From: Chrysomallon squamiferum
Lineage: Eukaryota > Animalia > Mollusca
Assembly: GCA_012295275.1 (NCBI GenBank)
Contig: CM022679.1
Location: 7,750,001 to 7,814,000 of the forward strand
Length of the DNA: 64,000 nt
Reading direction: 5' to 3'
Positions 1-24,571 of this stretch are shown here, piece by piece. The notes beneath the pieces were generated by a model that had not been told where the DNA came from, did no database searches, and saw only the letters and a program-made list of their open reading frames with translations. The first letter of the stretch is position 1; each line of letters begins with the position of its first letter. The position numbers and the translations under genes are program-made.

Positions 1-99
1 GAAACACAACTTATTGGCGACGCCATTGTTTAAAGTGGAGGTGACTTCTTTTACGTCGTAGCTGTGGCTATATAAGAACGACAAACAGAGGATGACGTA

Positions 100-194
100 A
101 GCCTGAGGGTTCTTTTTATAAAACAATTGAACATCCACTACCCCGTTGATTTTTATCCGGGATGTGGAAAAACGGCCCTTTTCAGGGCCACCCC
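100..194 (+). ncRNA. Cassette A copy 1: putative ~95-nt small RNA ending in a histone 3' stem-loop
   Basis: TATATAAG at 69; AAAC-GGCCCTTTTCAGGGCC-ACCC with stem-loop at 174-189; no histone ORF. Start and end are inferred from TATA spacing and the usual cleavage ~5 nt after the stem-loop. Confidence 0.5.
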
Positions 195-2966
195 CCCCCA
201 CCCCCTCAATCTCACGAATGAGTAGTTCTCTGTTCATAATCCTATTGCTTTGCCGAATATAATAATAATAATAATAATAATAATAATAATAATAATAATA
301 ATAATAATAATAATAATAATAATAATAATAATTAATATAATAATAATAATAATAATAATAATAATAATGTTTCAAATAGCAGTAGTGGTAGAATTCTTGT
401 TTTTGTTATATAACACTAGTAGTAGTTACTATACTTCTTTTTGTCAGATAGTACTATTCTTCTTCTTCTTCTTCTTCTTCTTCTTCTTCTTCTTCTTATT
501 ATTATTATTATTATTATTATTATTATTATTATTATTATTGAAACAATTTTTCAAAACGTTCTGTCTATTTCAGATGGTGTTAATTTTAGCATTTCATATT
601 TTCCTAAAATAATTACCTACAGTCAATGCACTGACGTCAGTATATCAAGAAATCCACAAAAAAACCCACAAAAAAACATTTAAAAAACAACTTTAATAAA
701 CCAACAAAGAAACTCCAACAACTAAAACACATATACCATCATCTCATACACTGCTTTAAAATATCTACATATATCACCATCTCATACACTGCTTTCAAAT
801 ATATATGATTTTCCAGCAATGTAATTATAGATATTTTAAAGCATTGTATGAGATAGTGGTATATGTACTTAATATCATGAGTCTGCAGAACTTCGTTCTT
901 GTTATCTACATTTAATAATTTAACATATCTGTCTAAATCATCACACAGTGTATTAAACAGAAAAAGAAACTCCAAGTAACCATTCCTAATTTATATATAA
1001 CTAAAAAGTTTGATATAAATGAATACTTCTCCAAGAATTCTTTCTTAAAAATTAAATGATGCATAGTGCTTATCCTGAATAAAAAGAAGAAAAAGCAACA
1101 GTGTACAGCATTAATTATCATCGTTTACAAATATATATATATATATATATTCTCTCTGCTAAAATGTTCGTTTCATAAAATTATCATTAATTGTTATTAG
1201 ACTACCTTTGCATAAATAAATCTTTCTGTTTAAACAGTGGATTTGATGTTAATTTTTATTTTATTTTATTTAATTTTTTAAATTATCATAAAATGATCTT
1301 CTTCACATGCTAAGAGAGTCCTTCTGTTCGGTTGTTTTTGATACAACCCCCCCCCCACACACACACACACACACAAATGTAACAAATATGATTCATACAT
1401 GATCCGCTTACACCGTCTTTCTTAGTTTGCTTTCTTTTGCTTTTTTGTTTTTATTGTTTTTCCGTGTTTTTTTCTGGGAGTCTGATTAATATTGTTATTA
1501 TTATTATTATTATTATTATTATTTATGTTTGCATAAGCAGAACAATGAATCGTAACAAAACACTGACTAAAATCTGTGCTGAGATCTCACAGAGGTAAAT
1601 CACATGAAACCAGAAAATTGTAGTCTGTTCTATTAGCTGATTGTTTATAACAAAAGAAAAATGCGCCGAATCTAAATTATCGGTAAAACTCACCCATAAT
1701 CTTTTTTAGATGTTCAGACGTTTTTGAAAAGGGCATCCCCATATCTCCAACATACTTCCCCGGTAAAAACTAAATATGATTACGTCAGACACTAAATTCG
1801 TTAGATTCACTAAGATTACGAAACCGTAGACATTTATAAACACAAAAGTAAATGCTTGTTTTTGGTTCTTTCTTTCTTTCATTCTTTTTTTACGTTTTTT
1901 TTTTTTTTTTTTTTTCCCCTCTTTTTTAACGTGAAAAGTTTTGGGGAAAAAACACAACTACAGAACGTAAAATAAATTGTTTAAAGTGGAACCCTATCCT
2001 TATTATTATTAAATAAATTAAAATTATTACTAAAATAATTATTATTCCAATTATTAAATTATTGAAATAAATTATTAAAATTATTATTATTACTTTTTAA
2101 TGACGAATAAATAAAATAAAGCAGAACAATAAATATAAAACAAAAAACATTCACTAAAATAAGTAATGAGATTTCAAATGTAAATCACATGAAACCAGAA
2201 AATTATAGTCCCTTCTGTTAGCTCATTGTTTATAACAAAAAAAAAAATGTGAAAACCTAAATTATTAGTAAAACTCACCCATAATCTTTTATAGATGTTC
2301 AGCAAGTTTTTCAAAAGAGCTTTCCCATATTTTCTGTATCCCCGTAAAAAAATAAATATGATTACGTCAGAAACTAAATTCTTAACATTTGCTAGGATTA
2401 CGAAACCGTAGACATTTCTAAACATAAAAGTAAATGCTGGTTTTTGGTTCTTTATTTCTTTTAATTTTATTTTGATGTTTTATTTATTTTATTTTATTTA
2501 TTTATTTATTTATTTGTTTCCTGTTCGTGTGTTTTCTTTGACTTATTTTTGTATTATTAAATGAAAATCTGCTTTGAATACTGCACATTTTATACTCTTT
2601 CCCATTTAGTCGTAACTAAACAACTAGAAAACGTCGTTAAAAGCAAACTGTTGATATTACACACAATAAAAACAAAGAAAAACACCTTTAAATTCTATAT
2701 TATTTAGCTTTCTTTGAACAATTTCATGAAATTTTTACATTAAAAATATAGAAGGAATATTTTTAAAATGACAAACTTAAACATAACCTTATCAAAAATA
2801 TGTATGTACACATATTAGAGAATGATATCGTAACAGAAGATTTTAACGTGAAAAGTTATCAAGGGAAAAAACGCAACTTCTTGGCGACGCCATTGTTTAA
2901 AGTGGAGGTGACGTCTTTTACGTCGTCGCTGTGGTTATATAAGAGCAACAAACAGAGGATGACGTC

Positions 2967-3061
2967 AGCCTGAGGGTTCTTTTTATAAAACAATTGAACA
3001 TCCACTACCCCGTTGATTTTTATCCGGGATGTGGAGAAACGGCCCTTTTCAGGGCCACCCC
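2967..3061 (+). ncRNA. Cassette A copy 2: putative small RNA with histone 3' stem-loop
   Basis: TATATAAG at 2936, Inr-like TCAG at 2965-2968, internal hairpin 3001-3035, histone stem-loop 3041-3056. Confidence 0.5.
3041..3056 (+). promoter_or_regulatory. Histone 3' UTR stem-loop (SLBP-binding consensus); identical at 174-189, 7007-7022, 11301-11316, 15945-15960, 20258-20273, 23440-23455
   Basis: Matches the metazoan histone stem-loop: 6-bp stem GGCCCT/AGGGCC, TTTC loop, A-rich 5' flank (AAAC) and ACCC 3' flank. Confidence 0.85.
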
Positions 3062-23200: not shown

Positions 23201-23365
23201 GTATGTACAGATATTACAGCACTATATCGTAACAGAAGATTTTAACGTGAAAAGTTTTCAAGGTAAAAAACACAACTTCTTGGCGACGCCATTGTTTAAA
23301 GTGGATGTGACTTCTTTTACGTCGTCGCTGTGGCTATATAAGAACGACAAACAGAGGATGACGTC

Positions 23366-23460
23366 AGCCTGAGGGTTCTTTTTATAAAACAATTGAACAT
23401 CCACTACCCCGTTGATTTTTATCCGGGATGTGGAAAAACGGCCCTTTTCAGGGCCACCCC
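23366..23460 (+). ncRNA. Cassette A copy 7: putative small RNA with histone 3' stem-loop
   Basis: TATA at 23335, stem-loop 23440-23455, followed by AATGAGTTGT (HDE-like). Confidence 0.5.
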
Positions 23461-24571
23461 CCCACCCCCTCAATCTCATGAATGAGTTGTTCTCTGTTCA
23501 TAATCCTATTGCTTTGCCTAATAATAATAATAATAATAATAATAATAATAATAATAATAATAATAATAAAATGATAATAATAATTAATAATGTTGCAAGA
23601 AGCAATAGTTGTAGAATTGTTGTTTTTGTTATATAGCACTAATGGTAGTTAGCATTGTTCTTTATGTTAGATAGTGTTATTGTTGTTGTTCTTCTTCTTC
23701 TTATTATTATTATTATTATTCATGTACTAGTAGTAATAGCAGTAGTTTCAGTTAATGCAATATTAACTATAATAACGAAAAGGTCTTACAATTTTTCAAA
23801 ACGGCCTGTGTCTATTTCAGATGGTGTTAAATTTAGCATTTCATAATTTCTTAAAATAGTTACCTACCGTCACTCCACTGACGTCTGTCCATCAAAAAAC
23901 CCTCAAAAACTCTTGGAAGGAAACCACAAGAAGAAAAAAAAAATATATATATATATATACCACCATGTCATAACTGCTTTAAAATATCTATAGTCAGCAC
24001 AGATTTTCCTGCAATGTAGTTATAGATATCTCACCTATGTAAATATTTTAAAGCAGTGTATTAGATGGTGATATATGTACTTAATATCATGGGTCTGTTT
24101 TCATGTGTGATGCCGGTCTTGGTTCTTGTTATCTACATTTAATAATTTAACATATCTGTCTAAATCATCACATTTTTTTTTTTTTTTTTTTTAAATAATT
24201 AAAAAATGAAAGCAAGATGAAAATGTGGTTAATTTATTTCAGTACCCTAGTCCTTCGGTAATATTGTGTTTTCTTTCTTAAATACTTCTGATTACTAAAA
24301 ACGTAAGTAGACTGTGACCCACTGGATGGTTTAGGAAGCGTTACTAATTTCGATATTTGTACATTTTTATATTTAGGAATTTAACGTAAAATTGCTAAAT
24401 ATAAATTATGAAATCCCAATAAAGAATGAATATGTGAATGAATAAAAAATATATAATTATTAATACTGATAATTAAAAAGTAATAAAACGAAATGAAGTA
24501 AGGTAAAATAAAATAAATAATATTAAATTAAATAAATAAATAGTATTAAGTGAAGTAAGTAAATATATGCC

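What the first reader, a model, noticed from the sequence alone, without database searches (positions are those of the whole stretch)
1..23520. Seven tandem histone-less histone-type genes: TATA box, ~95 nt of non-coding sequence, then a perfect histone 3' stem-loop
Seen: each unit has TATATAAG, an Inr-like TCAG ~30 nt later (6 of 7 copies), and exactly 105 nt after the TATA the invariant element GGCCCTTTTCAGGGCC in an A-rich/ACCC context. A purine-rich AATGAGT(A/T)GT resembling the histone downstream element (vertebrate consensus AAAGAGYTG) follows ~27 nt later, somewhat further than usual. No H1/H2A/H2B/H3/H4 or protamine-like coding sequence is visible anywhere in the 24-kb array, and the interval holds no ORF ending before the stem-loop except a 4-codon MTSA across the start. 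Known: this stem-loop is the SLBP-binding, U7-processed 3' end considered essentially specific to replication-dependent histone mRNAs. T5 runs in the body argue against Pol III. Inference: a multicopy Pol II small ncRNA that uses histone 3'-end processing, e.g. an SLBP/3'hExo decoy, an S-phase or oocyte-regulated RNA, or a histone-locus-body seed. I recognise no described family.
Basis: partly seen in the sequence, partly recalled or inferred. Interest (0 to 1): 0.88.

Follow-up and report, generated by a model that had tools for sequence, protein, structure and literature searches.

The report
Snail mini-genes with histone RNA tails
A snail genome carries seven tandem protein-less cassettes, each with a TATA box, a nearly unchanging 70-base body and the hairpin that normally ends histone messages; they are likely small non-coding RNA genes, but most of their relatives in the same species appear to have let that hairpin decay, and no transcript has been shown.

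Summary
There are seven exact histone stem-loops (SL), each 105 nt after TATATAAG, none expected by chance, and no histone coding sequence. The cassette differs 0.8% between copies against 5-12% for the other repeated modules. The body-SL junction is present in contigs of four DNA runs. The neighbouring ABCA3 gene points to a vetigastropod/neomphaline-like snail.

New here: the ~69-nt body (predicted start to the end of an internal hairpin) belongs to a larger family. The window's form is only about 17-30% of it by contig depth. The majority form has a 16-nt linker and what reads as a decayed SL; minor forms keep a linker plus at least part of the SL. So the SL is likely ancestral but dispensable, and the body is the conserved unit. 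The purine-rich element lies at +25 to +33 and is not supported as a histone downstream element. A paralogous TATA cassette without SL (type B, ~315 nt, structured) shares the array. No transcription is shown: both RNA-library contigs are majority-type and run through the promoter.

Verdict: likely a lineage-specific small Pol II RNA gene family with an inherited histone tail (0.45); an inert repeat remains possible (0.3).

The parts
69..194 (+). Type A cassette 1: TATA 69-76, predicted start 100, body 100-168, histone SL 174-189 (Inr reads TAAG; promoter cut by the window start)
2936..3061 (+). Type A cassette 2: TATA 2936, predicted start 2967, SL 3041-3056
6902..7027 (+). Type A cassette 3 (reference copy): TATA 6902, predicted start 6933, SL 7007-7022
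   Evidence: bridged by DNA contigs
6933..7001 (+). Conserved 69-nt body of the family (predicted start to last base of the internal hairpin at +35..+69), shared almost unchanged with family members that lack the adjacent SL
   Evidence: 6933-6985 with 0 differences in the deepest contigs; only listed variant G7002A; fold
6783..6820 (+). Distal upstream block kept at nearly the same distance (98 vs 95 letters) from the body in a family member whose intervening sequence has been replaced
   Evidence: run X9 record 18 and joint 6820-6916
6833..6844 (+). 12-nt box containing AAACACA about 100 nt before the predicted start, shared by type A and type B (resembles the H1 box; motif recalled)
7047..7087 (+).
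   Evidence: block 7060-7083 joined to the body in one further contig each in X3 and X4
11196..11321 (+). Type A cassette 4: TATA 11196, predicted start 11227, SL 11301-11316
15840..15965 (+). Type A cassette 5: TATA 15840, predicted start 15871, SL 15945-15960
20153..20278 (+). Type A cassette 6: TATA 20153, predicted start 20184, SL 20258-20273
23335..23460 (+). Type A cassette 7: TATA 23335, predicted start 23366, SL 23440-23455
8366..8790 (+). Type B cassette 1: paralogous box (8366) and TATA (8447), predicted structured RNA about 8476-8790, no histone SL
12706..13129 (+). Type B cassette 2 (TATA 12787)
14542..14895 (+). Partial, TATA-less type B copy interleaved with spacer sequence (mosaic; rearrangement or assembly artefact)
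17350..17770 (+). Type B cassette 3 (TATA 17428)
1..24370 (.). Whole tandem array of shuffled spacer modules and microsatellites that carries the A and B cassettes

Best explanation
These are seven tandem copies of a protein-less TATA cassette that is likely a small RNA polymerase II RNA gene of a lineage-specific multicopy family, whose conserved unit is the ~69-nt hairpin-bearing body and whose histone stem-loop is likely an inherited 3' module, intact in this subfamily and apparently decayed in the majority of the family. Shown: the anatomy, the higher conservation of the cassette, its presence in four DNA runs, the sharing of the body with members that have other flanks. Inferred: Pol II starts 31 nt after the TATA box; the RNA folds into the internal hairpin and the SL; the window's form arose from a 'body + 16-nt linker + SL' ancestor by loss of the linker between two AAAAC repeats; SLBP would bind the SL and would protect or set a poly(A)-less 3' end near 95 nt (about 11 nt longer if U7 read the distal purine run as in mammals). 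Because the majority form seems to do without an intact SL, the family's job likely resides in the body, and SLBP/U7 use would be a subfamily-specific way of ending or stabilising the RNA rather than its purpose.
For: Cassette 3 of 152 columns variable (0.8%) against 47 of 349, 52 of 359 and 99 of 332 in three spacer modules. Across subfamilies, 6933-6985 is identical in the deepest contigs (X2 record 4, depth 343; X4 record 21, depth 1004) and the only variant listed in 6890-7087 is G7002A, the first base after the hairpin; the letters just upstream and downstream differ at about 6 of 30 and 5 of 16 positions (read by eye from loose ends). TATATAAG is kept in all upstream loose ends that reach it (X1, X2, X3, X4), and a distal block is kept at the same spacing in a member with a replaced promoter middle (X9). 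Window form 66.9 of 226.2 (X2) and 170.1 of 797.1 (X4) by depth at 6988-7001, or 20% and 17% against the deepest body contig; G6924A, absent from 7 of 7 window copies, is carried by 174 of 254 (X1) and 2776 of 3517 (X3) depth units. Loose ends after 7006 read as a 16-nt linker then GGCCCTTTTCA (X2, majority of 3 contigs), a 10-nt linker then GGCCCT (X3), and a majority form that lines up without gaps with linker+SL at 16 of the first 26 letters (binomial p about 4e-4 at 0.28 chance identity; inflated because that form is one of the 3 contigs in the consensus). SL pairs form with probability 0.82-0.99 in the 95-mer. Type B is a paralog (local score 38 vs 20.4 +/- 3.2, 0 of 1000 shuffles) with its own promoter conservation (1 of 112 columns variable).
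Against: No transcript: the only RNA-library contigs (X8, X9; 1 each, depth about 4) are majority-type and extend through the promoter, as DNA would. Contig depth is not a copy number, and only 30 letters of each loose end were visible, so an intact SL further down in the majority form is not excluded. Columns are not independent, and gene conversion or recent amplification can homogenise a block without function; the 16 SL columns alone are not significantly conserved (P=0.095). The 95-mer folds only modestly better than shuffles (z=-1.74) and the body matches no Rfam family at E up to 10. A-B homology of the body alone is weak (32 of 1000 shuffles reach it). No histone gene or U7 of this species was available for comparison.
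Confidence: 0.45

Rival explanations
1. An inert repeat: a chimeric or coding-deleted histone gene remnant, or a non-autonomous mobile element that once captured a histone 3' end, amplified as a complex tandem array and dispersed copies and homogenised by conversion.
For: No RNA evidence; SL apparently decayed in most members; shuffled, microsatellite-rich array with mosaic copies; dispersed loci sharing only 6931-6977 inside 1.4-3.5 kb contigs; an earlier scan note describes a mobile repeat with histone SLs in another genome (unchecked lead).
Against: Conservation is sharply bounded by the predicted start and the hairpin end across subfamilies with diverged flanks, and TATA and a distal block keep their spacing; no histone coding remnant; the 25 longest inverted repeats are all microsatellite pairs; no tRNA-like head.
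Confidence: 0.3
2. One reading: a ~95-nt RNA defined by histone-type processing (U7 cleavage 4-5 nt after the SL) that acts as an SLBP/3'hExo decoy or cell-cycle-coupled RNA.
For: Perfect 16-mer with correct flanks in 7 of 7 copies, 0 variable columns in SL and the next 25 columns; SL kept while the majority form's equivalent changed at 5 or more of 14 letters (by eye); a mouse substrate with a 12-nt insertion is still cleaved, though about 12 nt further out (PMC7026596 section 24).
Against: Minority form of the family; C-rich zone where a downstream element is expected (usual spacing recalled); purine run differs from the AAAGAG core given in PMC7026596; no RNA.
Confidence: 0.12
3. The cassette is the promoter, 5' leader and first exon of a secreted-peptide gene family, now broken in these copies, with the SL sitting in the leader.
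For: An ATG 27-29 nt after the stem opens MSSSLFIILLLC (MSCS.. in copy 7) in 7 of 7 copies; 9 of 1545 ATGs outside the array give such a hydrophobic run; weak Pfam hits to the N-termini of two secreted-peptide families, below cut-off; the block is joined to the body in one further contig in X3 and X4.
Against: Frames end at 14, 30, 40 or 48 codons inside a microsatellite; upstream AUGs precede it; no joint to this block was reported for the majority form despite 219 loose letters in X8; post-hoc pattern in an AT-rich genome.
Confidence: 0.08
4. The body is a divergent known snRNA-class RNA (U7 snRNA or a spliced-leader RNA).
For: 69 nt, a UCUUU box at +12 and a 12-bp 3' hairpin with a 5-bp basal stem fit the loose U7 description in PMC5054213; a U-run at the best A-B alignment block, which is a canonical Sm-type site in B.
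Against: No RUUUNUCYNG between the UCUUU box and the hairpin; a 9-of-10 match lies inside the hairpin instead (by eye); TATA promoter rather than a PSE; no Rfam hit at E up to 10; a leader in A would be only 9 nt.
Confidence: 0.05

Closest known systems
Replication-dependent histone gene 3' end (Rfam RF00032 Histone3; SLBP and U7 snRNP pathway)
   Same: Exact 6-bp stem/4-nt loop 16-mer also found in human histone genes (PMC7807067 passage), A-rich 5' and ACCC 3' flanks, TATA promoter, no intron, tandem arrangement.
   Different: No histone coding sequence; Rfam score below gathering; no purine element at the usual distance; most family members appear to lack an intact SL.
Multicopy Pol II snRNA-type genes (U7 clusters of sea urchin, frog and zebrafish; spliced-leader RNA arrays)
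   Same: Short, near-identical transcribed-size body in many copies with diverged flanks but kept promoter blocks; clustered.
   Different: TATA/Inr instead of PSE; no qualifying Sm site in type A; ends in a histone SL; no Rfam match.
Histone pseudogenes and orphons
   Same: Histone-type 3' end outside a working histone gene.
   Different: No coding remnant; the most conserved part is non-histone sequence; cassette is more conserved than its spacers.
Gene-less mobile repeat carrying histone-type stem-loops (earlier scan note e1-7709042, another genome, unchecked)
   Same: Promoter-like box plus histone SL without a histone gene, in a repeated element.
   Different: No sequence look-alike was returned; here no terminal repeats were seen and the copies are mostly tandem with shared spacers.

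Membership tests
Replication-dependent histone gene | Histone coding sequence between promoter and SL | tested here: not met
   0 histone-type Pfam hits in 84 of 84 segments of one super-unit; only 74 nt between predicted start and SL
Replication-dependent histone gene | Conserved 16-nt SL with A-rich 5' and ACCC 3' flanks | tested here: met
   Rfam 25-28 bits is below the gathering score of 34
Replication-dependent histone gene | Purine-rich downstream element at the usual distance, complementary to the species' U7 | tested here: inconclusive
   +8..+22 is C-rich, purine run at +25..+33; usual distance recalled; this species' U7 unknown
Replication-dependent histone gene | Poly(A)-less RNA ending 4-5 nt after the SL and bound by SLBP | not testable with these tools
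   only contigs were available; the two RNA-library contigs are not the SL form
U7 snRNA | 57-70 nt with UCUUU box and 8-15-bp 3' hairpin | tested here: met
   69-nt body, UCUUU at +12, 12-bp hairpin (criteria from PMC5054213)
U7 snRNA | Sm site RUUUNUCYNG between the box and the hairpin | tested here: not met
   no match; a 9-of-10 match lies inside the hairpin; no Rfam U7 hit
U7 snRNA | PSE-type promoter | not tested
   species PSE unknown; a TATA box with Inr at +31 is present
Spliced-leader RNA | Leader exon, GU donor and Sm site | tested here: inconclusive
   canonical Sm-type site in B at +62, none in A; leader in A would be 9 nt; leader-bearing mRNAs could not be searched
Pol III type-3 gene (U6/7SK/Y-like) | No T4+ run before the terminator | tested here: not met
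   T5 at +14 and +51
SINE/MITE | tRNA-derived head or terminal inverted repeats | tested here: inconclusive
   0 tRNA genes; 25 longest of 752 inverted pairs are microsatellites, the rest not seen; insertion sites of dispersed copies not available

The most novel reading that the evidence does not exclude
A snail lineage has built a new family of small Pol II non-coding RNAs on a histone-gene chassis, and this subfamily is expressed, bound by SLBP and ended at the histone stem-loop: a non-histone RNA that uses the 3' pathway held to be exclusive to replication-dependent histone mRNAs.
Probability: 0.22. Interest if true: 0.87.

Novelty: new variant of a known kind. Interest (0 to 1): 0.58.

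Why it matters
PMC5054213 (introduction) states that replication-dependent histone mRNAs appear to be the only mRNAs processed through the stem-loop/U7 route. A conserved, multicopy, protein-less cassette that ends in this stem-loop would be an exception if it is transcribed. The family also supplies its own control: SL-intact, SL-spaced and apparently SL-decayed members share one body and one promoter type, so the effect of the SL on 3' end, stability and cell-cycle timing can be read in one animal. U7 and histone downstream elements of molluscs were not found in the searches made, so a positive result would also help find them. If silent, it is still a record of how histone 3' ends get recycled into repeats.

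Tried and rejected
Own-genome search: none held. Metagenome scan with a 20-nt body pattern: 10 loci, none extending beyond 31 aligned letters, flanks unrelated, read as chance. Run X10 (organism B, relation unknown): 0 contigs laid at 80% likeness; no proof of absence. X8 and X9 held 0.09 of the words and proved to be majority-type, promoter-spanning contigs, so they are not counted as expression. Rfam: body 0 hits, type B 4 hits far below gathering; miRNA hits at 766-867 are an AT-rich palindrome far below gathering. Type B alignment fold: 0 of 93 pairs with a double change among 3 copies, so no covariation support. Assembly artefact for the SL junction: rejected (X1 record 8, 6956-7057, 0 differences; X2 record 5 and X4 record 23, 6956-7087, 1 difference each; X3 records 12-14, 6973 to 7030-7032). 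My interim idea that the SL was a late add-on (note) was dropped. MTSA micropeptide: upstream of the predicted start and MT* in copy 1. Earlier-finding look-ups by sequence and place returned nothing. Paper searches for a described family returned none that fits by title or abstract start; four papers I wanted were not held, so absence from print is weakly tested.
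Full report
Observation. The 16-mer occurs exactly seven times, all on the + strand, with none expected by chance. 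Each copy has TATATAAG 105 nt upstream, TCAG at +29..+32 in 6 of 7, A-rich letters before and ACCCC after the stem. Rfam Histone3 finds all seven at E 2e-4 to 4e-3 but below its gathering score. The identical 16-mer is in a list of human histone stem-loops (PMC7807067, one passage read). None of 84 stop-free segments of 28 aa or more from one super-unit (6600-11400) matches a histone-type Pfam family; the other units are copies of the same modules. The neighbouring ABCA3 exon is closest to Gigantopelta aegis (64%) and Haliotis (56-58%), so the host is likely a neomphaline or vetigastropod snail.

Conservation inside the window. From the predicted start (TATA+31) to 63 nt after the SL, 3 of 152 columns vary among six copies (0.8%), against 47 of 349, 52 of 359 and 99 of 332 in three spacer modules shared by 5-6 copies. 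Body plus SL against the upstream spacer gives Fisher p=0.001, with the caveat that columns and copies are not independent. The SL alone (0 of 16) is not significant (P=0.095).

Other DNA runs. Nine of 11 listed runs hold part of the cassette, all labelled organism A, from three studies; the best holder may be the window's own source. Contigs bridge body, SL and downstream block with 0-1 differences in X1, X2 and X4 and bridge body and SL in X3, so the junction is not an assembly artefact. Depth peaks over the body and falls at the SL in all four DNA-type runs in which anything was laid. At 6988-7001 the depth splits into 66.9 (window form), 144.6, 10 and 4.6 in X2 and 170.1 (window form), 579.1 and 47.9 in X4; against the deepest body contig the window form is 20% and 17%. 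A variant at 6924 that none of the seven copies has is carried by 69% (X1) and 79% (X3) of depth. Depth of contigs is not a copy number, so these are rough shares.

What the other members look like. Only 30 letters of each loose end are shown, some as consensus of 2-3 contigs, so the following is read by eye. After 7006, low-depth members in X2 have a 16-nt linker ending in AAAAC and then GGCCCTTTTCA; two short contigs in X3 have a 10-nt linker and then GGCCCT; the majority form (X4 record 24, X8, X9) has a 16-nt linker ending in AAAC and then a sequence that lines up without gaps with the SL but has lost the upper stem. The simplest history is an ancestor 'body + linker + SL', loss of the linker between two AAAAC repeats in the window's form, and decay of the SL in the majority. 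This is inference; an intact SL further down in the majority form is not excluded. Meanwhile 6933-6985 is identical in the deepest contigs and the only variant listed in 6890-7087 is at 7002, the first base after the internal hairpin (X3 record 10 and X4 record 22 are more diverged, 10 and 5 differences). TATATAAG is kept in the upstream loose ends, and X9 keeps a distal block at the same spacing while 95 letters between are replaced by 98 others. Identical transcribed-size bodies with diverged flanks and kept promoter blocks are what multicopy small-RNA gene families look like (own knowledge), though conversion can mimic it.

Expression. Not shown. The two RNA-library runs give one contig each (depth about 4); both are majority-type and include promoter sequence. 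A poly(A)-less RNA of 70-95 nt would also be poorly sampled by such libraries (own knowledge), so this is no evidence of silence.

Downstream element. The zone +8..+22 after the stem has 3 purines of 15 in every copy; the best purine run starts at +25 (+23 in copy 7). By recall the purine core normally starts about 13-17 nt after the stem. In mouse extract a 12-nt insertion shifts cleavage about 12 nt outward rather than abolishing it (PMC7026596, section 24 and passages read), so if U7 reads this run the end would likely fall near +16, not +5. The same block opens a short hydrophobic frame in all seven copies that ends at 14-48 codons in the microsatellite; 9 of 1545 ATGs outside the array give such a run. 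This is kept as a minor rival.

Type B. Three full copies and one TATA-less mosaic of a second cassette share the 12-nt upstream box, the TATA context and a similar hairpin with type A (score 38 vs 20.4 +/- 3.2, 0 of 1000 shuffles; body alone 32 of 1000). Its predicted 315-nt RNA folds at z=-2.8, with the predicted first bases pairing to 8633-8645, shows no covariation among three copies, matches no Rfam family near threshold and has no histone SL. The array is thus a cluster of two related TATA cassettes, only one with the histone tail. The upstream box contains AAACACA, recalled as the H1 box (PMC6027317, one passage, names the box but gives no sequence); the 7-mer occurs 14 times in 39.4 kb outside the array, so this is a weak hint of an H1-type promoter.

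Mechanism. Shown: anatomy, conservation, family structure in outline. Inferred: Pol II initiation at TATA+31 (T5 runs at +14 and +51 argue against Pol III); folding into the internal hairpin and the SL (pair probabilities 0.78-1.0); SLBP binding to the SL form. Committed reading: a lineage-specific small-RNA gene family whose function lies in the body, with the histone tail as an inherited, optional 3' module (0.45). Rivals: inert or mobile repeat (0.3), SL-defined decoy RNA (0.12), broken secreted-peptide first exon (0.08), divergent U7 or leader RNA (0.05).

Known systems and novelty. It works, if at all, like a histone-type transcription unit at its 3' end and like an snRNA gene family in its pattern of conservation; it is a member of neither (no coding sequence; no U7 Sm site by the rule in PMC5054213, parts 1-2 of 4 read). 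Searches for a described family (listings only) and passages of PMC13525598, PMC6210712, PMC1924863 and PMC3884669 showed none; several key papers were not held and no supplements were read. One earlier scan note reports a mobile repeat with histone SLs in another genome, a lead only. Interest 0.58: real, unusual and directly testable, but unexpressed so far, seen in one species label, and the histone tail appears dispensable in most of the family.

Noticed in passing
   Followed up: partly
window 1921-1995 and 14484-14900: Short stretches where pieces of type A promoter, type B and spacer are interleaved; may be assembly or polishing mosaics of the tandem array.
   Followed up: partly
window 729-867 and equivalents after each type A copy: 38-nt tandem repeats with an inverted partner forming a ~100-nt AT-rich palindrome (sub-threshold miRNA model hits).
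   Followed up: no
contigs laid on 6931-6977 in X2 and X4: Further loci share only the first 47 nt of the body with other flanks; their loose 3' letters could still form the same hairpin outline as type B.
   Followed up: no
window 25979-30870 (+): Exons that read like an EME1-type structure-specific nuclease subunit (recalled resemblance, not searched).
   Followed up: no
window 40064-42720 (+): Exons that read like a NUBP2/Cfd1 Fe-S assembly P-loop NTPase (recalled resemblance, not searched).
   Followed up: no
window 49216-63130 (-): ABCA3-like transporter gene; a 30-nt tandem array at 51425-51912 repeats the end of one exon with its donor site about 16 times.
   Followed up: partly
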